A model generated the notes under the pieces. It was not told the DNA's origin. It worked only from the letters and a program-made list of their open reading frames with translations, and did not search any database. 32,000 nt of DNA from Roseithermus sacchariphilus (GTDB taxonomy: Bacteria; Bacteroidota; Rhodothermia; Rhodothermales; MEBIC09517). Below, one piece after another: positions 1,651 to 28,190 of the stretch. Where the stretch lies: contig CP030158.1 in assembly GCA_003285105.1 (NCBI GenBank), positions 3,674,449 through 3,706,448 on the forward strand. The letters are read 5' to 3'. Both the position numbers and the translations under genes were made by a program. Position 1 is the first letter of the stretch. Each line of letters begins with the position of its first letter.

Positions 1651-1933
1651 GATGTACCGTCGATCTCTGGCTGTATGTAAAAATCGGAACACGACGCCCG
1701 CCGCACAGCCTGCGCGGTGCTCCGCCAGGGAAACTCTTTCCCCGTGGCGATACCGGGCGCTGGAATCGCTTCCGGCGTACCATGCTGGTACCCCGCGGCC
1801 CGGGAGCCCCGTTCCCCGCGGATCGGGTAAAAATCCGTAACCGCGGACTTCACAAAAAACGCGCCTACCGCGCTTTAGCCCGTTCGTCGCCGTTCCGTAC
1901 TTGCATCGTTTTCCACCCTCGCCCCTGTTCATC

Positions 1934-5668: not shown

Positions 5669-5674
5669 CGCCGG

Positions 5675-5692
5675 ATCCGGGCATGCCCGGAT
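5675..5692. terminator. Perfect 18-bp GC-rich palindrome (ATCCGGGCATGCCCGGAT) between convergent genes; possible factor-independent terminator hairpin without a U-tract
   Basis: Read directly. It starts 7 nt after the HDOD stop (TGA 5666-5668) and lies 73 nt from the stop of the convergent TonB-dependent receptor (5765). It would form a 7-bp stem with a 4-nt loop. No T-tract on either side, so its function is uncertain. Confidence 0.3.
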
Positions 5693-5764
5693 GTGGGATC
5701 GAGCCCGTGGCGTGACCTGCCAACACCCCTCCGCGCCTTTCCGTCCGGCGTCTGCGGACCGCGT

Positions 5765-7807
5765 TCAGATCGTCAGGTCGAAGCCCAGGCTGACGGCCCG
5801 CCCCGGGCCGGGCAGGCCGAGTTGCGGCAAGACCGTGGCATCGGTGAGGTTGTCGACGCGCGCAAACAGCTCCCCGATGACGACGGCAGGCTGCCCCAAC
5901 CGTACGCGGTAGCCGACCCGGGCGTCCAGCACGAGGGACGACGGCAGCGTCACGAGGCGGTTGTCCTCGGCGCGACCGTAGGCCTGCCCGGTGCCGGTCG
6001 CCTGAACCAGCCCGGACAGCCCGCCCCGGCCGCGGTAGTCCAGGGCCAGCAACCCGAGCCAGGCCGGCTTTTCGATCAATGGATCGGTTTCGCCGTCGAT
6101 CATCCCGCGGGCGTGCATCCCGGTGAGGTGCCCGCGCACCACCCAGCGGGGCGAGAGCGTCACCTGCCCGGCCACTTCCACGCCCAGCACACGGCTGCCG
6201 TCCAGATTGATGCGCTGACGCCGCCGTTCCTCTTCTCCCTGCTCGTTGACCACCGTGACGTTCCGCTGGTCGATCGTATCGAAGGTCCGGCGGGCGAAGA
6301 ACGTGGCTTCCCCGGTCGCCGCTCCCTGCCGCCGCAGCCCCACCTCACCGATCCAGGCCGACTCCGGGCGCAGGTTCGGGTTCACCAGAAACCGGTTGAG
6401 CGCCTCGCCGAACAGCTCCCGCATCGTCGGGAAGCGCACCTTGCGGCCGGCCGAAGCGGTGAGGGCCCAGGCCGGGGCGATGTCATAAGACGCGGTCGCT
6501 GCAACGCCGAGAGCCGTCTGGGGGTCGCGGCCGGGTTTATCGCCGGTCAGCGGCGTGGCGATGCCGTCGAGGCTCGCCCCGGCCGTCACCTGCCAGGCTG
6601 GAGACGGGCGCAGGCGGTATTCCGCGCCCAGGCTGAAGAGGTGCTGCCGGTATCGCTGCGTGGGGAAGGCCTCCGGGGGTCCGGCAAGCCGTCCGTCCGG
6701 CCCGAAGGCCAGGTCCCGCTGGTCGTGCCGCGAGGTAAGGCCGTGAAAAGCCAGCCGCACGGCCCCCGGCCCCGCCGCCCGGTCCAGCAGGAGCCGCAGT
6801 CCGGCGGTGACGTCGTCATCCTGCTGGGTGTCCTGCACCCGCTCGTAGGCGACCGAGGCGTACTGGTCGATCTGCTGGGCAAAGCGACTGCCCCAGACCG
6901 CCCCCCGCAGCCAGAGGCCCCCCGGCAGAGCCGCCCGTCCGTTGAGGATGAGCAGGCTGGTTCGCCAGTCGGGATAGCGCCAGTACCGCACGCGATCCAC
7001 GTCGGGGTCGAGATGACCTTCCGGGGCGACGCCCCGGACGCCATCCAGATGCAGCGCCGACACGCCGACCTGTACGGCTTCCCGCTCGTAGGCGAGCTGG
7101 GCATAGAGATTCAGCAGACGCCGGTCGGTGTTGGTGCGCAGCTCGGCATCGGGCTGGCTGTAGGGCAGGTCGGCGCCGGCCGGCAGGGGCTGGCCGCGCT
7201 GCTCCACATAGCCGGCCGAGGCCGAGTAGCTCCAGCGCGACGTGCGGCCGAGATGCGTGACGTAGGCCTGGCCGTGCTGCGGACGGCCCCACCGTCCGTA
7301 GACCTCCGTGTAGCGACCGGGGCCGTCCAGCTCACGCGCCGTCAGGTTGATCGCCCCGCCCAGCACGTTCGGGCCATAGGCCACCGACGGAGCCCCCTTC
7401 ACGACCGTCATCCCGCCGATCACAGACGCCGGCACCAGGCTCAGATCCACCCGATTGTCCCACGGGACGTTGAGCAGCGCGCCGTCGAAGTAGAGGGTCA
7501 CCTGCCGCTCACCGGCGCTGCGCAGGTAGACCAGCGTTTCCCCGCGGGAGTTCGTCTGCACGTGGGCGGCCGGGATGAGGCGGGCCACGTCATCGACCGA
7601 GGGGGCGTCCTGGCGGGCGATGGCCGCCAACCCGATGCGCTGCACCGTCGCCGGCTCGGCCCCGCCGCCGTCGCGCTCTTCCGCGCCCACGACGATCTCC
7701 CCCAGTTCGTAGGTACGCAGCGAGTCCGGCGGCCGAGCGGGCTGCGCCGGCACACGCCCGGCCACCCCCATCGCCACCAGCCCGATCAGCACCCAGCGCC
7801 TCGCCAT
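5765..7807 (-). CDS. TonB-dependent outer-membrane receptor
   Basis: ORF 5765..7816 (TTG); the ATG is at 7807 (MARRWVLIGLVAMGVAGRVPAQ signal peptide). TonB-box/plug sequence: YELGEIVVGAEE, RLIPAAHVQTNSRGETLVYLRSAGERQVTLYFDGALLNVPWDNRVDLSLVPASVIGGMTVVKGAPSVAYGPNVLGGAINL. A long beta-barrel region with alternating Tyr/Gly/Arg strands follows. Confidence 0.87.
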   Translation of the reverse strand: MARRWVLIGLVAMGVAGRVPAQPARPPDSLRTYELGEIVVGAEERDGGGAEPATVQRIGLAAIARQDAPSVDDVARLIPAAHVQTNSRGETLVYLRSAGERQVTLYFDGALLNVPWDNRVDLSLVPASVIGGMTVVKGAPSVAYGPNVLGGAINLTARELDGPGRYTEVYGRWGRPQHGQAYVTHLGRTSRWSYSASAGYVEQRGQPLPAGADLPYSQPDAELRTNTDRRLLNLYAQLAYEREAVQVGVSALHLDGVRGVAPEGHLDPDVDRVRYWRYPDWRTSLLILNGRAALPGGLWLRGAVWGSRFAQQIDQYASVAYERVQDTQQDDDVTAGLRLLLDRAAGPGAVRLAFHGLTSRHDQRDLAFGPDGRLAGPPEAFPTQRYRQHLFSLGAEYRLRPSPAWQVTAGASLDGIATPLTGDKPGRDPQTALGVAATASYDIAPAWALTASAGRKVRFPTMRELFGEALNRFLVNPNLRPESAWIGEVGLRRQGAATGEATFFARRTFDTIDQRNVTVVNEQGEEERRRQRINLDGSRVLGVEVAGQVTLSPRWVVRGHLTGMHARGMIDGETDPLIEKPAWLGLLALDYRGRGGLSGLVQATGTGQAYGRAEDNRLVTLPSSLVLDARVGYRVRLGQPAVVIGELFARVDNLTDATVLPQLGLPGPGRAVSLGFDLTI

Positions 7808-7835
7808 CCCGACCAACGGCCGTCGCCCCCGATGG

Positions 7836-8405
7836 TCAGCTGCCCAGCAGATCCCGGATCGACACCGTCGGGGTCTGGCGGATGGCCTCGTACTGGGGCG
7901 GGACGACGTAATAGCGGCTACGCGGCGATGTCGTGACCGCGTTGACCCAGGCCACGGGCGCCCCCACGACCCGGGCGACGGACTCGTAGGCGTCCAGGTA
8001 CCTGTCGTACACGACCTGCTGCTCGGCCAGAAGGCCGCCGAACACCCGGCTGATGGTCCGGTAGCGCGTCTGCATGATCCAGGCGAACAGACCGGAGGTC
8101 GCCGCCGCCTGCTCCAGCAGGGCCTCGTGGCGGGCGATCAGCGCCCGGTGCCGGGCCAGCGTCTCCTCGTAGCCGGCGGCCACCGGAGCGAGCGCCGGAT
8201 AGCGCCCCACGGCCGCCCGAAGCGCCTGCGCCTCCGTCTCGGCCCGCGCCAGGGCCGCGGTGAACTGCTCGTTTGCCTGCTCGATCTGCGCCAGCGTCGC
8301 CTCTTCCGTACCGTAGCCGCCGTACGTCCGGCAGCCACTCGCGATCACGAACAACAGCAGCAGAACAGGCCAGAGGCGGGAAGTCATCGGCTCCGAACGT
8401 TTCAT
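7836..8405 (-). CDS. Hypothetical all-alpha lipoprotein immediately upstream of the TonB-dependent receptor
   Basis: ORF 7836..8519. The plausible start is ATG 8405 (MKRSEPMTSRLWPVLLLLFVIASGC, lipobox IASG|C) or ATG 8387. The mature part is Ala/Glu/Arg-rich and helical (TEEATLAQIEQANEQFTAALARAETEAQALRAAV). A 28-nt gap separates it from the receptor gene on the same strand. I recognise no family. Confidence 0.6.
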   Translation of the reverse strand: MKRSEPMTSRLWPVLLLLFVIASGCRTYGGYGTEEATLAQIEQANEQFTAALARAETEAQALRAAVGRYPALAPVAAGYEETLARHRALIARHEALLEQAAATSGLFAWIMQTRYRTISRVFGGLLAEQQVVYDRYLDAYESVARVVGAPVAWVNAVTTSPRSRYYVVPPQYEAIRQTPTVSIRDLLGS

Positions 8406-8555
8406 CAGACTCGGGGGCTGGTCCATGCGGGTTAACGGGTCATCGACCGAATATCCGAAAGCCGCATCAGCGGATGCACCCGGAACGACCGCCCGGGCGC
8501 CAATTCGGCACTTTTTCACGGCGGCCGTCCGATGCAGCCGTTCAGCGGGGGCCTT

Positions 8556-9839
8556 TCAGATGATGGTGTCGTCCGGGATGACGGCGTTCTTCGGGATCAC
8601 GACGATCCCGTCACGGATGTAGAAGTTCGGGCCTTCCCCCTCCTGCACCTGATCCCGGTTCTTCACGATACAGCGCCGGCCGATGCTGACGTTTTTGTCG
8701 ACGATCGCGCCCTCGATGTAGGCTTCCTCATTGATGCCGGGTTGCTCCGGGCCTTCCACGGGGTCACGCTGGCTGTGGTCGATCCAGGGGTAGTAATCCG
8801 CCCCCATCAGCACCGTGTTCTTGATCGTCGTGTTGTTGCCGATGAACGAGCGGATCCCAATGACGGAATTGGAGATCTGGCTGTTGATGATCACACTCCC
8901 CTCGGCGATGAGCGAGTCCTGCACGTAGGAGCTCTGGATCTTGGCCGGCGGCAGCAGCCGCGGGTTGGTGTAGAGCTGATGGTCCGGGCTGTAGAGGTCG
9001 AAGGCCGGGTACTTCTGCGCCAGCATCAGGTTGGCTTCGAAGAACGAGCGGACGGTTCCGATGTCGCTCCAGTACCCGTCGAAGGCATAGCTGACCACCC
9101 GACGCTGTTTGATGGCCCGCGGGATGATCTGCTTGCCGAAGTCGTTGTCCTCCGGGCGCTCGTCGAGCATCTCCTGGAGTGTCTCCTTGTTGAAGATGTA
9201 GATGCCCATCGAGGCCAGGTAGATGCGGCCCTTCTCCGCATACTTATCCGGGACGGGGCTTTCCTTGCCCTTGAGCTTGTCCAGCGGCGGCTTTTCATGG
9301 AACTCCGTGATGAGCTCCTCCTCGTCCGTTTTGAGGATGCCGAAGGCCGGGGCTTCCTCGGCCGTCACCGGGATCGTCGCGATGGTGATGTCCGCCTTTT
9401 TCCGCTCGTGATGCGCGAACATATCGCGGTAATCCATCTGATAGAGCTGATCGCCCGAGAGGATGAGCACGTGGGTGTGGCGATACACGCTCAGGTGCGG
9501 CATGCTGCGGCGCACGGCATCGGCCGTCCCCTGAAACCACTCCTTCGACATCGGGGTCTGCTCGGCCGCCATGATGTTGACGAACCCGCTGCGGAACCGG
9601 TCGAACGTGTAGGTCCGCGAGATGTGGCGGTTCAGGCTGGCGGAGTTGTACTGGGTGAGGACGAAGATGCGGTTGATGTTGGAGTTGATGCAGTTGGAGA
9701 CGGGGATGTCGATGAGGCGGTATTTCCCGGCCAGGGGCACGGCCGGCTTGGAGCGGCGGAGCGTCAGGGGGAAGAGGCGGGTGCCGGCTCCGCCTCCCAG
9801 GATCACGGCAAGGAGCTTGTCATCTACGGTGGTCTGCAT
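8556..9839 (-). CDS. glgC: Glucose-1-phosphate adenylyltransferase
   Basis: 427-aa ORF with an ATG start. Motifs: [66 protein letters not shown], and a C-terminal left-handed beta-helix repeat region. Confidence 0.93.
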
Positions 9840-10002
9840 ACGTGTGCGGTAGGAGTACGTGGGTGAGTTTGAGACGCCAGACGGCGGGTTGTCCGCTAAC
9901 GTACGCAGTGGAATCCAAAAACGCAGCCGCCGAACTGTGATGTCGGTGTAATCGAGGCCGGATCCACGCGCTCGTGGCCGGGAGGCGCACCGGCGCGGAG
10001 GC

Positions 10003-12435
10003 TCAGGGAGCGGTGCGGAAGATGACCTCGACCGGCCGCGCCGCCGGGCCGCGACCGCTCGGGGTGAAGGTCACGTCGTTGGTGATCAGCAGCCGGTCCA
10101 GCTTCGTGTCGTCCTCACGATAGGCTACCTCCAGCGTATGCGGTCCCGCCGTCAGGTTGAAGTGCATCGGCTGTTGCACCTCTTCCTGGTGATAGACCGG
10201 GACCCAGGACCACGCCTCCGACTGCACGATGCCGTTCCACGGCACCCACGGTTCTTCGTCGACGCGGACCCAGAACGAATCGCCGCTCCCGTCGGGGGCC
10301 TGCACGCGTCCCCAGAGCTGGTAGGTGCCGGCTTCGAGGACGGTAAAGGGATACCTCGCCCGGCCGGCTTCCGGCGGCGTCTCGCGGCTGTTGTGCCCCG
10401 TTTCCACCTCGATGAACTGTCCGCCGGTGGCCTCGGGGTCATCCTGCACGAGCAGCGGTTCGGACAGCAATCCGTCCTCGGCCTCCAGCCAGACGTGGAT
10501 GGGGTGGAGCGGCCGCCCCACCGAGCCGTGCCCGGAGGGGACGAACGCCAGGTCGTTCGTGACGAGCACGCGGTCGAGGCGGGTGCCGTCCTCCCGGTTT
10601 CGGAGTGTCAGCGTATGCCGGCCGGCCTCCAGCGTCATCACCAGCGGCTCGGGCGGCGCCTCCAGAGAGGACCAGTCGCGGTCGCTGATGGGATCCCAGA
10701 CCCAGCGGTCCGTCGTGGCGTGCCGCTCGGGGGTATCCCACACCACCTCTGTCCCTTCATCGACGGAGACGAAGAGGGAATTGTCGTTGTTGTTGAGCCC
10801 CAGCACGCGGCCCCAGAACGCGTATCGTCCGGCCACGGGCACCTCGAACACGAAGCGCACGGCGCCCTCGCCCCCGTCGTCGTGACCGGGACCGTTCGGC
10901 ACCTCCACGTAGGCTCCCCCGGAGGCCTGCGCCGTCTCGAAGCGCTGCATCGGTGCGGTCAGTTCCCCGTGCTCGGCCTCCATCCAGAGGTACACCGGGT
11001 GGTCGGGCGTTCCCGCATCGGGAGCCGTGGAGGCCTCGGGAGCCGTGGAGGCACTGGGGGCCCTGGGGCCTTCGGCAGCCGCCGTCTCCGGCCGGTCGGG
11101 CTCGATCGTCCCGGCGGAGAGGGCCTGCCGGACGCGGGGGTCGTCGAACTGCTGCAACGCCAGGCCGGCGCTCACGCTGACCGGCTCGGCCCGGTCCTGC
11201 AGGGCCACGAGCAGCGGCCCGATGGCCCGGGCATCGCCGAGGCGGCCGAGCCGCAGCGCGGCCTGCTGGCGGGCCGGCACATCACCCTCGCGCAGCGTAA
11301 CGAGCAGGCGATGCATCTGGCGGTGCTCCGGGGTCACCGGCCCCTGCAGGGACGCAACCGAGCCGACGAATGCGATCATGGCAAGCGTGGGAGGCAGTCC
11401 GGCCGCCCAGGACAGTGGCCGGCGGTCGGCGCGGGGCGCGAGGATCGCCCGGATGCGCTGCTTCAAGGCGGCGTGGCGGGCCATGCCGATCCACCCCGTG
11501 GCCGGGAGCGCGGGCCGCTTCAGCGCACGGGCGATCTCGAGCAGGTGCGTGGCGTAAGCCTCCGACGGCGTCCCGGCCTGGAGGACGGCATCGTCGCAGG
11601 CCTGTTCTTGCTCGTGGTGCATCCGGTGTACGGCCCACCACACGAGGGGGTTGAACCAGTAGACGGCCCGGGTGGTCTGCGCCAGCAGATGGGTCAGGAA
11701 ATCCCACCGGCGGATGTGAGCCAGCTCGTGCAGCAGCACGGCGCGGAGCCGCTCCGCCGGCCAGCTCGCCGCCTCGACCGGCAAGAGGATGACCGGGCGG
11801 ACCAGCCCCCAGGTGAGCGGACCCGCCACACGCGGGCTCCGCCGCACCGTGATCGTCCGCTTCAGCTGCGCCTGCCGAACGATCTCCACCGCCACCATCG
11901 GAGCCGCTCCCCGGGGATCGTGCAGCGCAGCACGCGTCCACCGCCGCACCTGCACCAGTCCGGCGACCGGGCGCAGGAGCAGCAGCAGCGCACCGAGTCC
12001 CCAGAGGCCCAGTAGCAGATACGGGCCCGCCTCGTCGTCGGACGGGTCGCCGGAGAGCGGGAGGGTCGGCAGGGCGTCTCCCGCGCCGTACCGGGCGGGG
12101 GTCGTCCCCACCGGTCCGGCCGGACCGGCCACCTCCGCCACGGCCATCACCGCGGGAGGCGGCGCCGCCGCAGGGGCCGGCTGCGTGAGGCGCCAGATCC
12201 TCTCCAGCGGTTCCCGGATCGCCGGCACGTCCCACGACGGCACCAGCGACGCCACCAGCGGGCATCCCAGCAGGCCGACCATGGCCACCGTCCAGACCCA
12301 GTGCCGCACCGACGCCGCAGCGCATCGCAGGACACCGGCCGTCAACAATCCGGCGAGGCCGACGATCAGGAGGCTCTTCAGCATCCCGACCCCCAGCAGA
12401 TCGATCAGCAGGCTGGTGTCGATGACCGATCCCAT
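10003..12435 (-). CDS. BlaR1/MecR1-like M56 zinc-metalloprotease signal transducer with a non-canonical C-terminal sensor (HEAT repeats + 2 CBM6/35-like modules)
   Basis: 810-aa ORF with an ATG start. There are N-terminal TM helices and an HELAH zinc motif (aa 236-240, nt 11716-11730) in the context [37 protein letters not shown]...EQACDDAVL, which is the Peptidase_M56 signature. A further TM helix lies at aa ~341-363. HEAT-like repeats occupy aa ~385-440, followed by a PAST linker and two tandem beta-sandwich-like modules. The gene starts 9 nt downstream of a BlaI-family repressor gene. Confidence 0.85.
10054..10506 (-). other. CBM6/CBM35-like module 2 of the BlaR1-like protein (aa 644-794)
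   Basis: [35 protein letters not shown]...[27 protein letters not shown]...AWSWVPV...[34 protein letters not shown]. It aligns position by position with module 1. The family assignment is by pattern only. Confidence 0.55.
10531..11001 (-). other. CBM6/CBM35-like module 1 of the BlaR1-like protein (aa 479-635)
   Basis: [35 protein letters not shown]...[27 protein letters not shown]...RWVWDPI...[34 protein letters not shown]. The layout is EAE...GG.Y...G.Y.WGRV...W.W...L.AG.H.L...D.i.v, typical of CBM6/35-type galactose-binding-like domains. Confidence 0.55.
11018..11052. repeat. In-frame 18-bp period direct duplication (TCGGGAGCCGTGGAGGC x2) inside the BlaR1-like linker
   Basis: Read directly: 17-nt identical copies at 11018-11034 and 11036-11052. 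They encode the duplicated [12 protein letters not shown] in the Pro/Ala/Ser/Thr linker ([20 protein letters not shown]). Confidence 0.9.
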
Positions 12436-12444
12436 GATGGTCGC

Positions 12445-12852
12445 TTATCCTTTGCGCGCGTTCTGTTCGGCCCGGGCCTGCTCGATCCACGCCGCGATCT
12501 CATCCAGCTCGGCGTCGGAGATCCGGGACGAAGACATGTCCAGCAGGGTCAGAACGGCATGGCTGGTGGAGCCGGCGAAGAAGGTCTTCAGCAGATGGCC
12601 CATCACCGAGCGCTTGGCCTTCTCGGGCGGCACCACGGGCGCGTAGACGTAGCGCTGCCCATCCTGCCGATGACGCAGATACCCTTTCTTCTCCAGAATC
12701 CCCAGCGTGATGCGAACCGAGTTGTAGCCCGGCGGGTCGGGCATCCGCTCCAACACCTGCGCGACGGTCGCCTCGCCCAGATGGTAGATGATGTCCATGA
12801 TCTGGCTCTCCCGCCGGCTGAGCTGGGTGTACAGTGGTTTACTCATGGTCAT
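12445..12852 (-). CDS. BlaI/MecI/CopY-family winged-helix transcriptional repressor
   Basis: ORF 12445..13050, but the recognisable protein starts at ATG 12852: MTMSKPLYTQLSRRESQIMDIIYHLGEATVAQVLERMPDPPGYNSVRITLGILEKKGYLRHRQDGQRYVYAPVVPPEKAKRSVMGHLLKTFFAGS. This is the Penicillinase_R family layout. The upstream 66 codons look non-coding and contain tandem DNA repeats. Confidence 0.88.
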   Translation of the reverse strand: MTMSKPLYTQLSRRESQIMDIIYHLGEATVAQVLERMPDPPGYNSVRITLGILEKKGYLRHRQDGQRYVYAPVVPPEKAKRSVMGHLLKTFFAGSTSHAVLTLLDMSSSRISDAELDEIAAWIEQARAEQNARKG

Positions 12853-12893
12853 GCGTGCTTCGCGTATCAATCGGATCCGGGAAAATAGGACGT

Positions 12894-12909
12894 TGCAAAA
12901 CCATTTGCA
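12894..12909. promoter_or_regulatory. Candidate BlaI operator: dyad TGCAAA-acca-TTTGCA
   Basis: Read directly. Perfect 6-bp inverted arms with a 4-bp spacer, centred ~50 bp upstream of the BlaI ATG (12852) in a locally AT-richer stretch. BlaI/MecI/CopY repressors bind dyads in their own promoters, which is established. Assigning that role to this particular dyad is inference. Confidence 0.3.
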
Positions 12910-12934
12910 TCGTTGACGAACGGAACGCCCGAGG

Positions 12935-12960
12935 GGCCCGGTCGAGCGGCCCGGTCGAGC
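12935..12960. repeat. 13-bp perfect tandem direct repeat x2 (GGCCCGGTCGAGC)
   Basis: Read directly: copies at 12935-12947 and 12948-12960, in the intergenic region between the NRDE gene stop (13002) and the BlaI start. Confidence 0.9.
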
Positions 12961-12970
12961 GGCGAATGCC

Positions 12971-12998
12971 CAGCAGCCAGCGGCCAGCAGCCAGCGGC
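12971..12998. repeat. 14-bp perfect tandem direct repeat x2 (CAGCAGCCAGCGGC)
   Basis: Read directly: copies at 12971-12984 and 12985-12998, immediately downstream (on the minus strand) of the NRDE gene stop. Confidence 0.9.
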
Positions 12999-13001
12999 CC
13001 G

Positions 13002-13805
13002 TCACCTGAGCTTCCCGCCTCGTCCGTCCTTCACTCGAAACCGAAACCATCCGTCCGGGGGCCGGGTGCCGTCGGGGCCGTAGGTGCGTTCCGCGAAGAG
13101 GACCTGCCCGTCGTGCCGGATGAGCAGCACCGAAGCCGCCCGCGTGCCGTAGGTGGGAGAGACGATGTGCATCGGGGAGAGCAGCCGTTCCCAGGCGAGG
13201 CCGACGCCCGTATCGGGGAGGGCCTCCTCGGGGGCAGGCGTCGGGTCATGCAGGCGATCCAGCAGCGATCGCGCCAGCCGCTCGGGCGCGGCGCCGTCCT
13301 GCTCCAGCGCGTCCGTCAGCATGGCCTTGCCGGCGCGGACCTTCGGCCAGGGGGTGTCCAGCCGGTGGTTGCTCAGCCCGTAGACGCCGGGCGGGATCCG
13401 CTGCACCCCACCGCCCCGGTTGGAGACGTACGCCATCTCCGCGGGCGTGCCGACGAGGAGGTTGAAGCCGTTGTAGGCCTCCGCCTCCCCGGCGAGGGCT
13501 TCCAGGTAGGCACGCGGCGCAGCGTCTGCGGTGAGGAAGCCGCTGACGAGATGCCCGCGGGAGGGCGCATCGGGCCGATGGTGACCCGGCTCCCGCACGT
13601 TCGTGATGGCCGCAAAGCGCCCGGACCGGGTCACGCCGAGCCAGGTGCCCCCGCTGCGGAGGTCGCGGCCTGCCAGCAGATCGGGGTGTTCGGGCGCCCA
13701 GAACTGCGCGCGCTGCGTGGGGCGCTCGTAGAACTCGTCCCGGTTGGCCGCCAGCACGAGGGCGTAGTCCGGGTGGTGCTGCCAGGCAAAGACGATCAGG
13801 CACAT
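13002..13805 (-). CDS. NRDE (TANGO2/DUF833) family protein
   Basis: 267-aa ORF: MCLIVFAWQHHPDYALVLAANRDEFYERPT...GGTWLGVTRSGRFAAITNVRE...GFNLLVG...YGLSNHRLDTPWPKV. N-terminal Cys2 and the NRDE motif are present. Confidence 0.85.
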   Translation of the reverse strand: MCLIVFAWQHHPDYALVLAANRDEFYERPTQRAQFWAPEHPDLLAGRDLRSGGTWLGVTRSGRFAAITNVREPGHHRPDAPSRGHLVSGFLTADAAPRAYLEALAGEAEAYNGFNLLVGTPAEMAYVSNRGGGVQRIPPGVYGLSNHRLDTPWPKVRAGKAMLTDALEQDGAAPERLARSLLDRLHDPTPAPEEALPDTGVGLAWERLLSPMHIVSPTYGTRAASVLLIRHDGQVLFAERTYGPDGTRPPDGWFRFRVKDGRGGKLR

Positions 13806-13868
13806 GGGGATGATCGGGCACGGGGGCAGAGGGGCGTCGGGGAGACGCGGCGCAGGGGCCGGGTCGGG

Positions 13869-14453
13869 TCAGGGAGCGGCCTTCGCCACGGCGATGAGGG
13901 ACGGCGGGTTCCGCGGGTTGTTGATGCAGGCGTACCGGACGGCCTGCGCGGCCTGAGGGTCCAGCGACGCGGCCCAGTCCTCCACCGCACGGGCTTCGCC
14001 GGCCCCGCCGGGGTGGCCGGTGTAGAGGACGACCGTCAGCCGCCCGCCGGGGGCGAGCAGCGCCAGCGCGGCCTCCAGCGCCGGCAGGGTGGTGTCCGGA
14101 CGGGTGATGACGCTCCGGTCCGAGCCGCCGGGGAGGTAGCCCAGGTTGAAGGTGACCGCCTGTACCCGCCCCCGCACCGCCGCAGGCAGGACCTCTGCCA
14201 TCTGCTCATGGCCGCAGCGGAAGAGGGTGCAGCGCTCCGCCAGCCCGGCCTCGGCGAGACGCCGGCGGGTCTGATCGAGCGCCGCCTGCTGCACGTCGAA
14301 CCCGTAGACGTGGCCGGCCGGACCGACCTGCCGCGCCAGAAACAGCGTGTCGTGCCCGTTGCCCAGCGTGGCATCCACGGCCACCGCACCGGGCGTCAGC
14401 ACCTCCGCCAGCAGCGCATGGGCCACGTCGAGCACGCGAGGCAACGAAGCCAT
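13869..14453 (-). CDS. Class I SAM-dependent methyltransferase, YtqB/MnmM ('putative rRNA methylase' PF06962-like) family
   Basis: This is the C-terminal 194 aa of the 634-aa ORF 13869..15773. An in-frame ATG at 14453 gives MASLPRVLDVAHALLAEVLTPGAVAVDATLGNGHDTLFLARQVGPAGHVYGFDVQQAALDQT...VTFNLGYLPGGSDRSVITRPDTTLPALEAALALLAPGGRLTVVLYTGHPGG. The rest of that ORF is antisense to aroB. Confidence 0.8.
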   Translation of the reverse strand: MASLPRVLDVAHALLAEVLTPGAVAVDATLGNGHDTLFLARQVGPAGHVYGFDVQQAALDQTRRRLAEAGLAERCTLFRCGHEQMAEVLPAAVRGRVQAVTFNLGYLPGGSDRSVITRPDTTLPALEAALALLAPGGRLTVVLYTGHPGGAGEARAVEDWAASLDPQAAQAVRYACINNPRNPPSLIAVAKAAP

Positions 14454-14660
14454 CCCATCACCGATCCGAAGACTCAGAAACACGAAGGAGGTGGGGAAAG
14501 ACCGAGGCCGCCCCGACAGGTTCCACCCTGCCCGCCCGCGCTCATCTACCCCGCGGTCCGGCCGCACGCGGAGGCGTTGCCATCTCCCCGAATCGTTCGG
14601 ATCTTGTAACGAAGGCGGCCGTAAGTCAGCCCCTCCCCTCCAACAGCCCCGTGTGCCTCC

Positions 14661-15761
14661 ATGATCGAGGTCTCCACCCCCATCACCGTCACCCTGGGTC
14701 CACACCGCCAGTACCCGATCCACTTCCGCCCGCTGGGTGAGGTGCCGTCGTTGATGGCGGCCGCCGGGCTCCGGCGGGGGCGGTGCCTGATCGTCACGGA
14801 CGACCACGTCGGGCCGCTCTATGCGGACCGGCTGGAGCAGGCGCTGCTCGGCGCCGGCTGGTCCCCACGGCGCTACACGGTGCCGGCCGGAGAGTCGACC
14901 AAGTCGCTGCCGCACCTCCAGAAGATCTACGACGTGGCGTTGTCCTGGGGCATCGACCGGCGGACGCCCGTGCTCGCGCTGGGCGGGGGGGTCGTGGGCG
15001 ACCTGGCCGGCTTCGCGGCGGCCACGCTCCTGCGCGGGTTGCCCCTGGTGCAACTGCCCACGTCGCTGATCGCCCAGGTGGACAGCGCCATCGGGGGCAA
15101 GACGGGCATCAACCACGTCGTCGGCAAGAACCTCATCGGGGCCTTCCACCAGCCCGCCCTCGTCTGCGCCGACCCGGAGACGCTCGCCACGCTGCCGCCG
15201 CGGGAATGGACGAGCGGCCTGGCCGAGGCCGTCAAGCACGCCTTCATCGCCGATGCCGACCTGCTGGCCTACGTGGAGCAGCACATGCCTGCCATCCTGG
15301 AGCGGGACCCGTCGGTCACACACCCGCTGATCTACCGGGCGGCGGCCATCAAGGCGGCTGTGGTCGGCGAGGACGAGCGGGAGGCCGGCCGCCGCGCCAT
15401 CCTCAACTTCGGCCATACGTTCGGTCACGCCATCGAGCGGGTGGCCGGCTACGGCGTCTTCACCCACGGCGAGGCGGTCGCGCTCGGGATGCGGGCGGCG
15501 CTCTACCTCTCCCGCTGCCTCCACCCGGACCTGCCGCTCGAACGGGCGGATCGGCTCCTCCGCCAGATCCCCGTGCAGGGCCGCCTGGCCGATCTGCCCA
15601 TCCCGTCGCTCATGCAGGCCATGCACGCCGACAAAAAGGTCGACGGCCGGACGCTGCGCTTCGTGGTGCTGCGCCGCCCGGGCGAGGCGTACGTGACGGC
15701 CGACGTGCATCGCGACGACGTGGAGGCCGCCTGGCTGTTCGCCCGGGGCGAGCTGGACTGA
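14661..15761 (+). CDS. aroB: 3-dehydroquinate synthase
   Basis: 366-aa ORF. Motifs: VPAGESTKSL, LALGGGVVGDLAGFAAATLLRGLPLVQLPTSLIAQVDSAIGGKTGINH, KNLIGAFHQP, LNFGHTFGHAIE, HGEAVALGM. Confidence 0.92.
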   Translation: MIEVSTPITVTLGPHRQYPIHFRPLGEVPSLMAAAGLRRGRCLIVTDDHVGPLYADRLEQALLGAGWSPRRYTVPAGESTKSLPHLQKIYDVALSWGIDRRTPVLALGGGVVGDLAGFAAATLLRGLPLVQLPTSLIAQVDSAIGGKTGINHVVGKNLIGAFHQPALVCADPETLATLPPREWTSGLAEAVKHAFIADADLLAYVEQHMPAILERDPSVTHPLIYRAAAIKAAVVGEDEREAGRRAILNFGHTFGHAIERVAGYGVFTHGEAVALGMRAALYLSRCLHPDLPLERADRLLRQIPVQGRLADLPIPSLMQAMHADKKVDGRTLRFVVLRRPGEAYVTADVHRDDVEAAWLFARGELD

Positions 15762-15865: not shown

Positions 15866-18800
15866 GTGATCGGCCACCTTCTGCATATCCCGAGACGGGC
15901 TCTCCTGCTCGTGCTCTATACCGCGCTCGGTGCGGTCGTGCTGTTCGTCGCTCTCACCCGGACCCGCGTGGGCCGGGACGGGCTTCGCTTCGAGATCGAA
16001 CGGCAGTTCGCCCGGCACTTCGAAGGGCGGCTCTCCATCGGCGTGCTGGAGGGCAATCTCGTGAACGACCTCTTTGCCGGGCAGGTGACGCTCTACGCCC
16101 CCGACGGGCGGCCGGTCGTGGTGATCGATTCCGTCCTCGTCGAACCGGACTGGACCGACCTGTTTCGCCGCTCGGTATCGCTCGGCACGGTGACGCTGCA
16201 ACGCCCCCGCCTCCGGCTGCACGCCGACTCCTCCGGGGCGTGGAACCTGGCCTCTGCGCTGCGGCGCCGGCGCCCGCCCTCGGCGGAAGCGGCTCCGTGG
16301 TCGTTCTCCGGGGCGGCCATCCAGGTCGTGGACGGCGAACTCACCACGACCCGCGACGGCCCGCCGCCGCCGCCCGTGCACGAGGGGCGCGTCTTCGACT
16401 ACACCCGCGCCGACCTCCGTGCCATCGAAGCGGATCTGACGCTGGAGTGGGGTCCGGGCCGCCTGCTGGTCGACGTCCAGCGCCTCTCGGCACGAAGCGA
16501 CACCCTCGGCCTGGCCCTCGACGCCCTCAACGGGCAACTCGTGCGCACCGGCGACACCTGGGCCGTCAACGACCTGGACCTGCAACTGGGGGCCACGACG
16601 CTGTCGCTGAACGGGACGGCACGCTCGCTCTCCGCCTGGTCGGCCGAGGCGCTTCGGGAGGCGGTCTTCGACCTGGACCTGGAAAGCCCCCGGCTGGCCT
16701 GGAACGAGCTGCGCCGCCTGCTGCCGGCCCTGCCCCTGGACGACGGCATCGCGGCGACGCTGCGGGCGCACGGCCCCCTCTACGGACTGGTGGTGGAAAC
16801 CCTGGACCTGCGCCGCGGGCGTAGCCGCCTCGCCGTCGAGGGCACCGTCCTCGGCTGGCCGGACTCGCTGGACGTCGAACTGGACTGGCGCCGGACGCGC
16901 CTGGTCCCGGCCGACGTGCGGGCCGTCTGGCCCGGCGCGCCCGCCGACGTGCTCCGGCGCCTCGGCACGACGCGGGCGGACGTCCTCACGCGGGGACGCC
17001 TCCGCGGAAACGCGGGGGAGCGATCCGTGCGCGCCTGGATCGAAGGGCAGGTGCAGACGGAGGCCGGCACGCTGGCCGGCCGCGTGCACGTCGAGCGAGA
17101 CGACGACGCCCGCCCGGCCTACGACCTCGACGTGCAGGCCACCCGCCTCGATCTGGGGCGTCTCCTGAACCGGCCGGGCCTGGCGAGCACCCTGGCCGGG
17201 CGGCTGCGGCTCGCCGGGACGGGCGACGACCCGGAGCGGCTCGCCGCCGATGCCTCGCTGCACCTCGGCCCCTCTCGCCTCGCCGGCCGACGGCTGGACT
17301 CGCTGTACCTGGACGTCCGGGCGCGGCAGGGGCAGTACACCGCCTCTGGCATGGCCCGGAGCGCCGGCAGCGTCGTCCGGGCCAGCACCGCGCTGGCCTG
17401 GAACCCGGCTTACCCCACCTATGCCTCGCAGGTGCGTCTGGACGCGGTCGACCTCGGCCCGCTGCTGCAACGAGACTCGCTACAGACCCGGCTCACGGCG
17501 GTCCTCGACGTGCGCGGAGGGGGGCGGTCGTGGTCCACCCTGCAGGGCCGGGCGATCCTGACGATGGACACCTCGCTGGTGGCCCACAACGGCGTCGCGC
17601 GGACGGTCCCGGCGCACACGACCACGCTCGACGTGCAGGGACAGGGCACGGACGGACCGCGCCTCCGCATCGGCGGGGATGTGCTCGATGCGGCGGTCGA
17701 AGGCCCGCTCGCCCCGGACCTCCTGGCCGCGCTGGGACGGCTCTGGCTGGACGGGCTCGGCGAGACGCTCCGGCGTGACCTGCAGAAGCCGTATCCGCGG
17801 CTGACGGCCTCGGCCCCCGACTCCGGCGGCAGCGAGCCGCCATCGACCCTCCTCTGGCAGGTCGGCGCCGAGCGAGAGCGGCTCGACGCGGCTCGGCGCC
17901 TGGCACAGGCCTCGCCGGACGCCCCGCTCCGCATCACGGCCCGGGTGCGGCTGCTCCGCTCGGACATCCTCTCGGCGCTGTTCCCGGCCGGGCCCCTGCT
18001 CCACACCGACCTGACCGCCGCCCTCACCGCCTCGGCAGACGCGGACTCGCTCCGCCTCAGCGGCCGCCTCACCGCCGACTCGCTCGACGTCGGCGCCCTC
18101 GTCCGGCTGGACAGCCTGGACGGTACGTGGACCCTGTCGTCGCGGTGGCGTGCCACGGGTCCGCCGGCGGTGGAGGCCACCGCCACGGTCACGGCGGCCC
18201 GGCTGAACACGGGGCGGCAGACGCTGCACGCGCCGGTCCTCGACGTCGCCACCGGGCCAGATGGCGGTCGGCTGCGGGTACGCACCGACGAGGCCCCCGG
18301 CGGGGTCGTGGTGCGGGGGGATGCCACGCTCACGCTGCTCCCCGACCGCAACCGCCTCACCCTTTCCGACCTCCTGATCGGCGCGGAATCGTACACGTGG
18401 ACGGCCCCGCAGCCGGGGCGGATCGACCTGTACGACGGGGCGGCGGTGGTCCACGACGTGACGCTGACCGCCCCCTCGACGCTCGTCGACGCGGCGCAGC
18501 GGCTCACGCTCACCGGCGCGGTGTCGCCGCTGCCCGAAGACACGCTCTTTGCCGAGATCGACGACCTCGTCCTGCGGCAAGTGTCGGCGCTGGCCGGGCT
18601 GCCACGGCCCGTCCGGGGACGGCTCAACGGCCGCGTGGCGCTGACCGGCGGGCTGCGCCAGCCGACGCTCTCCGGCCGCCTCGGCGTCGATGCCCTGGCC
18701 CTCGACGACCGGCTCCTCGGCGGCGTGGAGGTCACCAGCCGCCTCCTGCCGGAAGGCGGGATCGCCCTCGACGCCCGCCTGCGCCCGCTCCCGCCGGACT

Positions 18801-24354: not shown

Positions 24355-24684
24355 AGGTCGTTCACGCAAAGATATGATCGAAGTACGGGTTACATCTCAA
24401 TACGAGATCGACCAGAAAAAAGGATAACAGGATGGCTTCACCGCGTAAAGAACACACACTGCGAAGCCTGTTCTCCCCTCACGACTTCCGGCCTCTATCG
24501 GCATGAACTGACACAAACGAAATTACAAGGATAGAACCTTAAACTCCTTTCAGGTCACGCAACTGTTACGGCATCTTCAAAAGGATGCGTGGTATGGTAT
24601 GACACCTCCTTGCTCATGCTGCCTCCAGGCAGAACCTGTCAGGATAGGCCTCAAGGCGCCAGATAGCAGGCGTCGTCGCCATCC

Positions 24685-26843: not shown

Positions 26844-26899
26844 GGACAGAGCAGAAGCGATTGAAGTTGTAGTGCGAAGTGTCTACCCGGTGACCACAC

Positions 26900-26931: not shown

Positions 26932-26993
26932 CCGATGAACGCCGTGGCTCCCCAGAAACACCCTGTCGATCTGAGCAAAACATTCAGAACGGA

Positions 26994-28163: not shown

Positions 28164-28190
28164 AAGGAATCAGAAATACGAAGCAGAATC

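What the first reader, a model, noticed from the sequence alone, without database searches (positions are those of the whole stretch)
10003..12852. BlaI/BlaR1-type proteolytic signalling pair whose sensor is HEAT repeats plus two CBM6/35-like modules instead of a penicillin-binding domain
A BlaI-family repressor gene (12445..12852) is followed after a 9-nt gap by an 810-aa M56 protein. The N-terminal half of that protein is a canonical BlaR1/MecR1 transducer. It has TM helices, an HELAH zinc site at nt 11716-11730, and a further TM helix at aa ~341-363.

In BlaR1/MecR1 the next region is the extracellular class-D-beta-lactamase-like sensor. Here it is replaced by three elements:
- HEAT/PBS-lyase-like repeats ([19 protein letters not shown])
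- a Pro/Ala/Ser/Thr linker
- two ~150-aa modules with the CBM6/35-type layout (W-x-EAE ... GG-x-Y/F-x-EV ... AG-x-Y-x-x-WGRV ... W-x-W ... L-x-AG-x-HTL ... RED-x-T-x-LDR-x-L-x-TND)

This predicts a protease-coupled derepression switch triggered by a glycan or other beta-sandwich ligand rather than by a beta-lactam. I know of no characterised example. The pair sits directly beside glgC, which may be coincidental.
Basis: partly seen in the sequence, partly recalled or inferred. Interest (0 to 1): 0.7.

Follow-up and report, generated by a model that had tools for sequence, protein, structure and literature searches.

The report
BlaR1-type protease with CBM-like sensor
This is a repressor plus membrane-protease signalling pair of the kind that switches on penicillin resistance in staphylococci, but its outward-facing sensor is a pair of sugar-binding-like beta-sandwich modules instead of a penicillin-binding domain; it belongs to a small uncharacterised family that shares a conserved DNA operator.

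Summary
A BlaI-family repressor gene (12445-12852, minus strand) lies 9 nt upstream of an 810-aa M56 protein (10003-12435). That protein has the BlaR1 catalytic motifs and a BlaR1-like four-helix N-out/C-out topology. After TM4 come about 2.5 HEAT repeats, a disordered Pro/Ala/Ser/Thr linker and two ~150-aa beta-sandwich modules. The modules superpose on CBM6/CBM35; by sequence they reach only Pfam GH115_C.

New findings:
- About 46 related proteins (roughly 30 clusters) carry M56 plus these modules. Most have three modules and no HEAT. Only this lineage has HEAT in place of the membrane-proximal module.
- A dyad TGnAAA-N4-TTTnCA (window 12894-12909, about 41 nt before blaI) is conserved across the family and absent from about 1 Mb of control loci.
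- In relatives the dyad precedes operons that begin with an outer-membrane protein gene (TonB-dependent receptor, TolC-like OEP or an unnamed ~430-aa exported protein). This was not seen in the window.
- glgC adjacency is specific to this lineage.

The ligand is unproven; a glycan is only the leading guess. A 2026 paper already reports that most BlaR-like proteins lack the penicillin-binding domain. I rate this a new variant of a known kind, of moderate interest.

The parts
12890..12913 (-). Candidate BlaI-family operator. The minus strand reads ACGATGCAAA-TGGT-TTTGCAACGT, with the core dyad TGCAAA-N4-TTTGCA at 12894-12909. It ends 41 nt upstream of the blaI ATG.
   Evidence: It is an inverted repeat with 10-nt arms. 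It is the only perfect or near-perfect copy in the 32-kb window, against 0.01 expected. It is identical in strain RA while sequence further upstream has diverged. The same dyad, with at most 1 mismatch or as the TGT/ACA and TGA/TCA variants, is present in most related loci whose promoter region was recovered (none found in L093): 9 observed against 0.04 expected. The perfect generalised dyad occurs 7 times in family loci and 0 times in 1.03 Mb of control loci.
12445..12852 (-). blaI-like repressor gene (135 aa, winged-helix BlaI/MecI/CopY family, no cysteines)
   Evidence: Pfam Penicillinase_R scores 88.5 bits against a cut-off of 22.6. It matches MecI over its full length (1okr/1sd6) and the CopR DNA-binding domain (2k4b). 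It is 50-63% identical to the BlaI partners of all family members.
10003..12435 (-). Gene for the 810-aa M56 sensor-protease
12244..12417 (-). TM1 and TM2 (aa 7-64)
   Evidence: Hydropathy peaks. Model helices 7-33 and 41-64 with pLDDT above 90.
12037..12243 (-). Long extracytoplasmic loop between TM2 and TM3 (aa 65-133). It is acidic, Pro/Ala-rich, poorly conserved and predicted disordered. It is the positional equivalent of the BlaR1 extracellular loop that docks on the sensor domain.
   Evidence: 4 K/R against 9 D/E. pLDDT about 40 for aa 92-130. The BlaR1 loop mechanism is described in PMC9834060. The equivalence is an inference.
11443..12021 (-). M56 gluzincin protease domain (aa 139-331), cytoplasm-facing
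   Evidence: Pfam M56, E 6e-33. Foldseek matches the BlaR1 cryo-EM structures 8ext, 8exs, 8exq and 8exp at E 2e-6 to 9e-6. The segment holds 27 K/R.
11716..11730 (-). H236-E-L-A-H240 zinc-binding and catalytic motif
   Evidence: H236, E237 and H240 are invariant in 56 aligned relatives. It corresponds to BlaR1 H201ExxH.
11593..11607 (-). E277-Q-A-C-D281, the second gluzincin motif (third zinc ligand plus the Asp that salt-bridges the conserved Arg)
   Evidence: E277 and D281 are invariant. It corresponds to BlaR1 E242xxxD246. D245, Y294 and R327 are also invariant and match BlaR1 D210, Y261 and R294 within 2 residues.
11347..11409 (-). TM4 (aa 343-363), which carries the chain back out of the cytoplasm
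11113..11331 (-). Short HEAT/PBS-type repeat stack (aa 369-441, five helices). It occupies the position of the membrane-proximal module of other family members.
   Evidence: Pfam HEAT_2. alphaRep hits. Model helices. Only the window protein and P0002 combine HEAT with the modules.
11002..11106 (-). Disordered Pro/Ala/Ser/Thr linker (aa 444-478)
   Evidence: pLDDT 38-51. The composition can be read directly from the sequence.
10513..10983 (-). Beta-sandwich module 1 ('m1 type', aa 485-641)
   Evidence: Orthologous to module 2 of the three-module relatives.
10036..10488 (-). Beta-sandwich module 2 ('m2 type', aa 650-800). It reaches the Pfam GH115_C threshold.
   Evidence: Orthologous to module 3 of the three-module relatives.
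12828..12843 (-). Weak second dyad (2 mismatches) inside the first codons of blaI. Its significance is doubtful.
   Evidence: It lies in coding sequence, so its conservation in strain RA is uninformative.

Best explanation
This is an autoregulated two-gene switch of the BlaI/BlaR1 type that works by regulated proteolysis.

The proposed mechanism runs in four steps:
1. The BlaI-like dimer binds the dyad TGCAAA-N4-TTTGCA about 41 nt upstream of its own gene. This represses the blaI-M56 operon.
2. The M56 protein sits in the inner membrane. Its zinc protease faces the cytoplasm. Its C-terminal HEAT stack, flexible linker and two CBM6/35-fold modules lie in the periplasm.
3. A periplasmic ligand binds the distal m1+m2 module pair. 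This is relayed across the membrane, as in BlaR1, and activates the protease.
4. The protease cleaves the repressor and the operon is derepressed.

The ligand is most likely a carbohydrate or a glycan-bearing molecule. Its identity is unknown.

In most relatives the same operator controls an operon that also encodes an outer-membrane protein. That protein is a TonB-dependent receptor, a TolC-like channel or an unnamed ~430-aa exported protein. The output of the family is therefore remodelling of outer-membrane transport. In this genome only autoregulation is visible within the window.

What is shown:
- the domain architecture;
- the catalytic motifs;
- the fold of the modules;
- the conserved pairing with BlaI;
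- the conserved operator and its positions.

What is inferred:
- the topology (strong inference);
- repressor cleavage;
- ligand dependence;
- the ligand class.
For: - Pairing: blaI lies immediately upstream of the M56 gene in the window and in every related locus whose upstream end was recovered.
- Protease competence: H236ExxH240, D245, E277xxxD281, Y294 and R327 are invariant in 56 relatives. They map onto the residues shown to be essential in BlaR1 (PMC9834060).
- Structural match: the model matches the BlaR1 cryo-EM structures.
- Topology: see the positive-inside counts and the BlaR1 N-out/C-out topology. Module homologues are secreted: signal peptide directly followed by W-x-EAE, or T9SS tails.
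- Sensor fold: mean pLDDT 89.8. The best single-domain superpositions are CBM35 and CBM6, some solved with bound sugars.
- Company the module keeps: it is appended to GH88, GH28, GH10, pectate lyase, CE4, sulfatase, CBM6/35, malectin and BACON proteins.
- Conserved sensor core: every family member keeps one m1-type and one m2-type module as the distal pair. The membrane-proximal position is divergent, absent or replaced by HEAT.
- Operator: 9 boxes in 7 loci against 0.04 expected. The perfect generalised dyad is found 7 times in family loci and never in 1.03 Mb of OEP-only and generic-M56 loci.
- Operator positions: the boxes lie upstream of the first gene of each operon, 13-148 nt before it. 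In two loci a further box overlaps the annotated start of the gene that follows M56.
- Repressor conservation: the BlaI orthologues are 50-81% identical with a near-invariant recognition region. A paralogous BlaI in L004 is only 30-39% identical.
- Precedent: regulated proteolysis by non-beta-lactam BlaIR systems is established for PetRP (bioRxiv 10.1101/2020.07.31.226407) and proposed for CenIR (PMC13492132).
Against: - No binding data exist.
- By sequence the modules are nearest to GH115_C, which has not been shown to bind carbohydrate on its own. Only 1 of 33 modules touches CBM_6.
- No solved relative is detectable by sequence profile.
- None of about 11 family loci has carbohydrate-active enzymes in the operon. 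The neighbours are TBDR, TolC-like OEP, MacB-type ABC/MFP, AhpD-like and peroxiredoxin genes, MsrA and an Fbp-like ABC transporter. These suggest transport, efflux or stress functions rather than glycan catabolism.
- The S. aureus BlaI cleavage dipeptide (Asn101-Phe102) is not visibly conserved in the repressor.
- In the window no target gene other than the operon itself carries the box.
- One clade (L093, L094) showed no recognisable box.
Confidence: 0.55

Rival explanations
1. Trans-envelope coupling to an outer-membrane protein. The periplasmic modules do not read a free ligand. Instead they contact the co-encoded outer-membrane protein (TBDR, TolC-like channel or the ~430-aa exported protein) or the envelope polymer around it, and report its occupancy or state. 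This would resemble FecA-FecR cell-surface signalling, but with a repressor-cleaving M56 protease as the output.
For: - An outer-membrane protein gene is the recurrent box-controlled partner: TBDR in L001, L006 and L009; OEP in L003, L004, L007 and L099; the ~430-aa exported protein in L013 and L093.
- M56 fused to TonB_C is the second most common architecture, and M56 fused to Plug is also among the nine architectures with at least 100 entries (PMC13492132). An M56-Plug pair sits beside the family operon in L004.
- Two or three tandem ~150-aa modules on a membrane tether could span much of the periplasm (inference).
Against: - Three unrelated classes of outer-membrane protein would have to be recognised by the same conserved m1+m2 pair.
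- The window and strain RA have no such partner in the operon, and the nearby TBDR is an unrelated heme/B12 type.
- The same modules occur on many soluble secreted enzymes.
Confidence: 0.2
2. The C-terminal modules are accessory: a spacer, an anchor to an envelope glycan, or a dimerisation element. The signal is sensed elsewhere, for example by the TM2-TM3 loop as proposed for PetP, by the membrane domain, or by the repressor itself.
For: - Characterised or studied BlaIR-like systems work without any folded sensor domain: PetP, CenR, PvmS and mycobacterial BlaR.
- The GH115 C-terminal domain acts in dimer or substrate-guiding contacts rather than as a stand-alone binder.
- Module number varies from 1 to 3.
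Against: - The distal m1+m2 pair is retained in nearly all family members and is better conserved than the proximal position.
- The TM2-TM3 loop is the least conserved and is a disordered part of the protein.
- The repressor has no cysteines and no obvious ligand site (sequence).
Confidence: 0.15
3. A canonical antibiotic-resistance BlaR1/MecR1 system, or a CopY-type copper regulator, that has been mis-described.
For: NCBIfam blaR1_generic matches at E 4e-27, and CopY/TcrY matches the repressor at E 7e-10.
Against: - The blaR1_generic score is 94.7 against a cut-off of 400, and it covers only profile positions 105-309 of 585.
- There is no transpeptidase or class-D beta-lactamase-like domain.
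- No beta-lactamase or PBP gene lies in the window.
- The repressor contains no cysteine, so the CopY CxCxxxxCxC copper site is absent. The CopY score of 39 is far below the cut-off of 122.
Confidence: 0.02

Closest known systems
BlaR1/BlaI and MecR1/MecI of Staphylococcus aureus and Bacillus licheniformis
   Same: - The repressor and M56 genes are adjacent, although their order here (blaI first) is the reverse of the staphylococcal blaR1-blaI order (own knowledge).
- The M56 core has four TM helices and an N-out/C-out topology.
- H-E-x-x-H, E-x-x-x-D, Asp, Tyr and Arg catalytic residues are conserved.
- The repressor is a winged-helix protein that binds a dyad in its own promoter.
- A folded extracytoplasmic domain follows TM4.

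   Different: - The sensor is HEAT plus two CBM6/35-fold modules, not an acylatable class-D beta-lactamase-like domain.
- No resistance gene is under control.
- The operator half-sites are TGCAAA/TTTGCA. A TACA-N(2-8)-TGTA search, a form recalled from memory for BlaI/MecI operators, gave one unrelated hit in the window.
- The host is a diderm, so the sensor is periplasmic.
Non-canonical BlaIR-like systems: PetR/PetP (Synechocystis, copper), CenIR (C. difficile), mycobacterial BlaIR, PvmSR (P. aeruginosa)
   Same: All are M56 protease plus BlaI-family repressor pairs that do not sense beta-lactams. The concept that BlaR sensor regions are diverse is already published: 254 architectures, with about 96% within 5 genes of a BlaI.
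   Different: Those proteins have no folded C-terminal sensor, or only a short disordered one. This family has a large, well-folded tandem beta-sandwich sensor. The architecture is not among the nine with at least 100 entries listed in that census.
RsgI anti-sigma factors of Clostridium thermocellum (SigI/RsgI biomass sensing)
   Same: Analogy only. A single-pass membrane regulator displays CBM-type, PA14 or GH-like modules outside the cell, and polysaccharide binding triggers a proteolytic cascade that changes transcription (PMC10328401, PMC6852018).
   Different: The protein families are unrelated: an anti-sigma factor cleaved by RseP, against an M56 protease that cleaves a repressor. RsgI acts at a Gram-positive cell surface, whereas this sensor is periplasmic.
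CBM6 / CBM35 carbohydrate-binding modules and the GH115 C-terminal domain (Pfam PF17829)
   Same: They share the beta-sandwich fold, with target TM 0.74-0.78 over about 147 columns. They share an EAE strand at the start and a conserved Asp near the end. They are appended to carbohydrate-active enzymes. GH115_C is reached by 12 of 33 modules.
   Different: The modules are not members of Pfam CBM_6 or CBM_35 by sequence. No solved relative is detectable by profile. Carbohydrate binding by this module family has never been tested.
M56-HEAT proteins of Gemmatimonadota and Acidobacteriota
   Same: The same M56 core is followed directly after TM4 by PBS-type HEAT repeats. Dozens were found.
   Different: Those carry long HEAT arrays and no beta-sandwich modules. 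The window protein keeps only about 2.5 repeats and adds the m1+m2 pair, so it looks like a mosaic of the two architectures.

Membership tests
BlaR1/MecR1 beta-lactam sensor-transducers (NCBIfam NF000326 blaR1_generic) | M56 gluzincin domain with HExxH and ExxxD motifs | tested here: met
   Pfam M56, E 6e-33. H236ELAH240 and E277QACD281 are invariant. The motifs are as defined in PMC9834060.
BlaR1/MecR1 beta-lactam sensor-transducers (NCBIfam NF000326 blaR1_generic) | Four-TM, N-out/C-out membrane topology with a cytoplasmic protease | tested here: met
   Hydropathy and positive-inside counts. AlphaFold helices. Foldseek match to BlaR1 cryo-EM structures. This is computational only.
BlaR1/MecR1 beta-lactam sensor-transducers (NCBIfam NF000326 blaR1_generic) | C-terminal penicillin-binding (class-D beta-lactamase-like / transpeptidase) sensor domain | tested here: not met
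   There is no PF00905 or related hit. NCBIfam scores 94.7 against a cut-off of 400 and covers only profile positions 105-309 of 585. The C-terminus is HEAT plus beta-sandwiches.
BlaR1/MecR1 beta-lactam sensor-transducers (NCBIfam NF000326 blaR1_generic) | Controls a linked beta-lactamase or PBP2a gene | tested here: not met
   The neighbours are TANGO2, an rRNA methylase, glgC, a lipoprotein-like ORF and a heme/B12-type TBDR.
BlaIR-like regulated-proteolysis systems in the broad sense (M56 protease + BlaI repressor) | M56 gene within a few genes of a Penicillinase_R repressor gene | tested here: met
   The gap is 9 nt in the window. The genes are adjacent in all relatives.
BlaIR-like regulated-proteolysis systems in the broad sense (M56 protease + BlaI repressor) | Signal-dependent cleavage of the repressor by the M56 protease | not testable with these tools
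   This needs immunoblots of the repressor with and without inducer, in wild type and in an H236A/E237A mutant.
BlaI/MecI/CopY repressors (Pfam PF03965) | Winged-helix N-terminal domain plus C-terminal dimerisation helices | tested here: met
   Penicillinase_R covers profile positions 1-115 of 115 at 88.5 bits. The alignment to MecI 1okr/1sd6 is full length.
BlaI/MecI/CopY repressors (Pfam PF03965) | Binds a dyad operator in its own promoter | tested here: inconclusive
   A conserved family-specific dyad lies at 12894-12909 and at equivalent sites in relatives. Binding itself was not tested.
CopY/TcrY copper repressors (TIGR02698) | C-terminal CxCxxxxCxC copper/zinc site | tested here: not met
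   The 135-aa sequence contains no cysteine. The score is 39.2 against a cut-off of 121.95.
CBM6 / CBM35 | Beta-sandwich (jelly-roll) fold | tested here: met
   Foldseek matches: 2wz8 and 2w47 (CBM35), 2cdp, 2cdo and 5fui (CBM6), and 7zvo, with target TM 0.71-0.78 and rmsd 2.8-4.0 over 143-157 columns.
CBM6 / CBM35 | Sequence membership (Pfam CBM_6 PF03422, CBM_35 PF16990) | tested here: not met
   The window protein has no hit. Only 1 of 33 family modules hits CBM_6 and none hits CBM_35. The profile against PDB gives CmCBM6 1uxz only at E 0.2.
CBM6 / CBM35 | Demonstrated carbohydrate binding and a defined binding cleft | not testable with these tools
Glycan arrays, ITC or a co-crystal are needed.
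GH115 C-terminal domain (Pfam PF17829) | Reaches the Pfam gathering score | tested here: met
   Module 2 scores 29.0 bits in the whole protein and 25.1 bits alone, against a cut-off of 24.1. Module 1 does not reach it, and only 12 of 33 family modules do, so membership is marginal.
HEAT / PBS-lyase repeats | Tandem helical hairpins matching HEAT_2 / HEAT_PBS | tested here: met
   HEAT_2 scores 28.3 bits against a cut-off of 27.7. alphaRep hits reach E 3e-30. The model has five helices at aa 369-441.

The most novel reading that the evidence does not exclude
The family is a previously unrecognised route of periplasmic glycan sensing in Rhodothermota, Gemmatimonadota and related phyla. In this reading, a CBM-fold sensor fused to a BlaR1-type protease destroys a repressor and so induces outer-membrane import or export machinery (TonB-dependent receptors, TolC-like channels). 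It would stand beside the SusR, hybrid two-component and ECF/anti-sigma routes known from Bacteroidota. It would also come with a defined operator (TGnAAA-N4-TTTnCA), which makes the regulon predictable from sequence.
Probability: 0.3. Interest if true: 0.65.

Novelty: new variant of a known kind. Interest (0 to 1): 0.45.

Why it matters
BlaI/BlaR1 is a textbook antibiotic-resistance switch. Recent work shows that most of its relatives sense something else, yet almost none of those signals is known.

This family offers unusually good handles for experiment:
- a large, confidently folded extracytoplasmic sensor of a fold that normally binds sugars;
- a small, coherent set of orthologues;
- a conserved operator that marks its targets;
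- a recurrent link to outer-membrane transport genes.

Together these make the question 'what do non-beta-lactam BlaR proteins sense, and what do they control?' directly testable. The sensor is modular, and one module slot has been swapped for HEAT repeats in this lineage. That is also of interest for engineering protease-coupled biosensors.

Tried and rejected
- BlaI/MecI-type box. This form is recalled from memory. TACA-N(2-8)-TGTA gave one hit, at 25610, unrelated to the locus. The real dyad has different half-sites.
- Sigma-70 promoter and intrinsic-terminator scan of 5500-14700. There were no promoters, and the three terminator-like sites are all on the wrong strand. Co-transcription of glgC therefore cannot be settled.
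- glgC, lipoprotein-like ORF and TBDR as regulon members. There is no relaxed box before any of them. The window's TBDR is a heme/B12 type with no similarity to the family-linked TBDRs. glgC has its own conserved 125-nt upstream region. I rejected this as unsupported.
- Regulation in trans of an unlinked TolC-like OEP.
  - The window's organism has a 57% orthologue (P0383) on the same 4.8-Mb contig.
  - That genome is not in the positional index and carries no name.
  - Among the 33 other OEP-orthologue metagenome loci (179 kb; only the 24 with enough of the OEP were screened for the pair) none had the dyad or a blaI-M56 pair.
  - L099, the one locus that has the pair, had the dyad.
  - Trans regulation is not supported.
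- Sequence profile of 33 modules against PDB: nothing significant.
- Mapping conserved residues on the model: coordinates are not exposed to the script environment.
- CopY-type copper sensing: rejected, because the repressor has no cysteines.
- L093/L094 clade: no recognisable box. A different AT-rich palindrome (AGAAAT-N-ATTTCT) was seen by eye in L093 but was not tested.

Full report
OBSERVATION

The window carries, on the minus strand, a 135-aa ORF (12445-12852) and, 9 nt downstream, an 810-aa ORF (10003-12435).

- Pfam assigns the small protein to Penicillinase_R, the BlaI/MecI/CopY family (E 5e-25).
- Pfam assigns the large one to Peptidase_M56 (aa 139-331, E 6e-33), HEAT_2 (aa 380-453) and GH115_C (aa 676-798).
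- HELAH is at aa 236-240, nt 11716-11730.
- The two C-terminal ~150-aa segments are genuine repeats: 37% identity, E 3e-30.

One detail: the mechanical ORF for the repressor could start at 13050. The ATG at 12852 is the one conserved and annotated in the closest genome.

THE TRANSDUCER HALF

NCBIfam's blaR1_generic model matches only its positions 105-309 of 585 and scores 94.7 against a cut-off of 400. The M56 core is shared, but the protein is not a BlaR1 equivalog.

The S. aureus BlaR1 cryo-EM paper defines the essential features as H201ExxH, D210, E242xxxD246, Y261 and R294, with an N-out/C-out four-helix topology and a cytoplasm-facing active site (PMC9834060). In an alignment of 56 relatives the corresponding residues are invariant: H236, E237, H240, D245, E277, D281, Y294 and R327.

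Hydropathy gives four helices. Loop charges are 4 K/R against 9 D/E for aa 68-138, and 27 K/R for aa 160-340. These place the protease inside and the C-terminus outside.

The full-length AlphaFold model (mean pLDDT 82.5) reproduces these helices. Foldseek finds the BlaR1 structures 8ext, 8exs, 8exq and 8exp at E 2e-6 to 9e-6.

THE SENSOR HALF

After TM4 the model shows three parts:
- five helices (aa 369-441) that match designed PBS-type HEAT proteins at E down to 3e-30;
- a disordered Pro/Ala/Ser/Thr linker (aa 444-473);
- two beta-sandwiches.

A separate prediction of aa 479-810 with a 60-sequence alignment gave mean pLDDT 89.8.

The best single-domain superpositions are:
- CBM35: 2wz8 and 2w47, target TM 0.74-0.75;
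- CBM6: 2cdp and 5fui, target TM 0.74-0.78;
- the CBM35 modules of GH43 and GH26 enzymes;
- the C-terminal domain of GH115 enzymes.

At sequence level the picture is weaker.
- Of 33 diverse modules, 12 reach Pfam GH115_C, one reaches CBM_6 and none reaches CBM_35.
- A profile of the modules finds no significant solved structure. CmCBM6 and a 'polysaccharide-binding protein' appear at E about 0.2.

The modules are thus a distinct, structurally uncharacterised family with a CBM6/35-type fold.

Their distribution supports an extracytoplasmic, carbohydrate-associated role.
- Homologues occur singly or in tandem in proteins that also carry GH88, GH28, GH10, pectate lyase, CE4, sulfatase, CBM6/35, malectin, BACON, FN3 or T9SS sorting domains.
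- Many free-standing homologues begin with a signal peptide followed directly by the W-x-EAE strand.

THE FAMILY

The exact protein sits on a 4.81-Mb NCBI contig. An 86-88% identical copy is in Rhodothermaceae bacterium RA (CP020382.1) with the same gene order.

An exhaustive HMMER search of 1.84 billion cluster representatives, followed by local classification, found 46 proteins that combine M56 with the module. These represent roughly 30 clusters at 50% identity.

- Most have three modules directly after TM4 and no HEAT.
- A few have two modules or one.
- Only the window protein and its strain-RA orthologue have HEAT plus linker in the slot of the membrane-proximal module.
- M56 followed by long HEAT arrays is a common separate architecture in Gemmatimonadota and Acidobacteriota. 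The window protein therefore looks like a mosaic of the two architectures.
- The modules fall into two subtypes, m1 and m2. Nearly every family member keeps one of each as the distal pair: m1-m2 in the window's clade and m2-m1 in another clade.
- The proximal module is the most divergent.

I infer that the m1+m2 pair is the functional sensor and that the proximal slot is a spacer.

OPERATOR AND REGULON

A 10-nt-arm inverted repeat lies 41 nt upstream of the blaI ATG. The minus strand reads ACGATGCAAA-TGGT-TTTGCAACGT, at 12890-12913. It is unique in the window. It is identical in strain RA, while the sequence further upstream has diverged.

The same 16-bp dyad recurs in most related loci in which the promoter region was recovered (no box was recognised in L093); it appears with at most one mismatch or as the variants TGTAAA-N4-TTTACA (L013) and TGAAAA-N4-TTTTCA (L099). 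Its positions are:
- upstream of blaI where blaI is the first gene (window, L012, L007, L013);
- upstream of a TonB-dependent receptor that precedes blaI (L001 with two copies, L006, L009);
- upstream of a TolC-like OEP that precedes blaI (L003, L004, L099 with two copies);
- at the 5' end of the gene that follows the M56 gene, which is an OEP in L007 and a ~430-aa exported protein in L013.

The statistics are clear.
- Nine boxes were seen in seven non-redundant loci, against 0.04 expected from dinucleotide shuffles.
- The perfect generalised dyad TGnAAA-N4-TTTn'CA occurs 7 times in family loci.
- It occurs zero times in 854 kb of loci encoding other M56 proteins and zero times in 179 kb of loci encoding OEP orthologues without the pair.

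The BlaI partners are orthologous, at 50-81% identity with a nearly invariant recognition region. A second BlaI in L004, paired with an M56-Plug protein, is only 30-39% identical. This is what a shared operator predicts.

The family-linked TBDRs (52-76% identity), OEPs (46-64%) and ~430-aa proteins (41-45%) are each orthologous sets.

In the window itself no box precedes glgC, the lipoprotein-like ORF or the TBDR at 5765-7816. That TBDR is a heme/B12 type unrelated to the family's receptors. glgC has its own conserved upstream region. Within the window, therefore, only autoregulation can be inferred.

One clade (L093, L094) showed no recognisable box.

MECHANISM

The best-supported model is a BlaI/BlaR1-type regulated-proteolysis switch. 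It runs in three steps:
1. The repressor dimer binds the dyad.
2. A periplasmic signal is read by the m1+m2 modules and relayed through the M56 membrane domain.
3. The repressor is cleaved and the operon is derepressed.

Direct repressor cleavage by the M56 protease is established for BlaR1 and PetP. Here it is inferred from the conserved catalytic residues and the conserved pairing.

The ligand class is the weakest link.
- In favour of a glycan: the fold and the CAZyme association of the module.
- Against a role in polysaccharide catabolism: the operons contain transport, efflux or redox genes rather than carbohydrate-active enzymes.
- The nearest Pfam family, GH115_C, is not a proven binder.

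I therefore give the overall model 0.55. The rivals are:
- a trans-envelope model in which the modules report on the co-encoded outer-membrane protein, 0.2;
- an 'accessory modules, signal sensed elsewhere' model, 0.15;
- canonical beta-lactam or copper sensing, excluded by failed defining features.

COMPARISON WITH KNOWN SYSTEMS AND NOVELTY

A 2026 study of CenIR grouped about 15,000 M56 proteins into 254 architectures.
- Only about 6% carry the transpeptidase domain.
- About 96% lie within five genes of a BlaI.
- The authors concluded that BlaIR systems sense diverse signals (PMC13492132).

PetRP (copper), mycobacterial BlaIR and PvmSR are further non-beta-lactam examples.

The following are not in that literature, as far as my searches show:
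- this architecture;
- its m1+m2 sensor core;
- its family-specific operator;
- its link to outer-membrane protein genes.

CBM-bearing membrane regulators that trigger proteolytic signalling are known in an unrelated family, the clostridial RsgI anti-sigma factors. These provide a functional analogy only.

I classify the finding as a new variant of a known kind, with interest 0.45.

LIMITS

- The window's own genome could not be retrieved, so the regulon outside the 32 kb is unknown.
- All functional statements are computational inferences.

Noticed in passing
L013:8648-9919; L093:2657-3952 (-) and 1005-2345 (-): A family of ~430-aa proteins with a signal peptide and a conserved C-terminus (...FGS-x-[YF]-x-N-[VI]-VNTR-[LF]). 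It has no Pfam or NCBIfam hit, and its members are 41-45% identical. It sits next to BlaI-M56(module) pairs in two independent loci. In L013 an operator dyad overlaps its annotated start. It may be an uncharacterised outer-membrane beta-barrel.
   Followed up: partly
L004:4066-6020 (-): A second, divergent BlaI plus M56 pair, whose M56 protein has a TonB-receptor Plug-like C-terminus, lies back to back with the OEP-blaI-M56(module) operon. Its BlaI is only 30-39% identical to the family repressors.
   Followed up: partly
window 24000-29000: G+C falls from about 0.70 to 0.53-0.61 over roughly 5 kb. This suggests a compositionally foreign segment.
   Followed up: no
window about 12970-13000 (minus strand): A direct repeat GCCGCTGGCTGCTGG x2 lies immediately after the TANGO2 stop codon. 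It is conserved in strain RA, whereas the following ~40 nt have diverged.
   Followed up: no
L009:about 7540-7609: The spacer between the TBDR and blaI holds short tandem repeats, GCTATCA x4 and CCTGAATC x2.
   Followed up: no
P0026, P0027 (1237 aa): These M56 proteins carry a single copy of the beta-sandwich module at the extreme C-terminus; P0027 also has redoxin/thioredoxin and TPR domains. M56-redoxin fusions are very common in Poribacteria.
   Followed up: no
L094:2805-7141: In one family locus a SusD-like gene and a probable SusC-like gene lie convergent to the M56 gene. This is the only hint of a polysaccharide-utilisation context among the loci sampled.
   Followed up: no
window 9840-10002: The 125 nt upstream of glgC are almost identical between the window and strain RA. 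They include a T-rich element (GCTGCGTTTTTGGATTC), while the first ~40 nt after the M56 stop codon have diverged. glgC probably has its own promoter or leader.
   Followed up: partly
window 15866-20737: A 1623-aa TamB/DUF748-type protein gene overlaps at its 3' end the longest RNase R (RNB) ORF (20424-22787). The overlap is probably an artefact of mechanical start-codon choice in high-GC DNA. Many long antisense ORFs in this window are likewise compositional artefacts.
   Followed up: no
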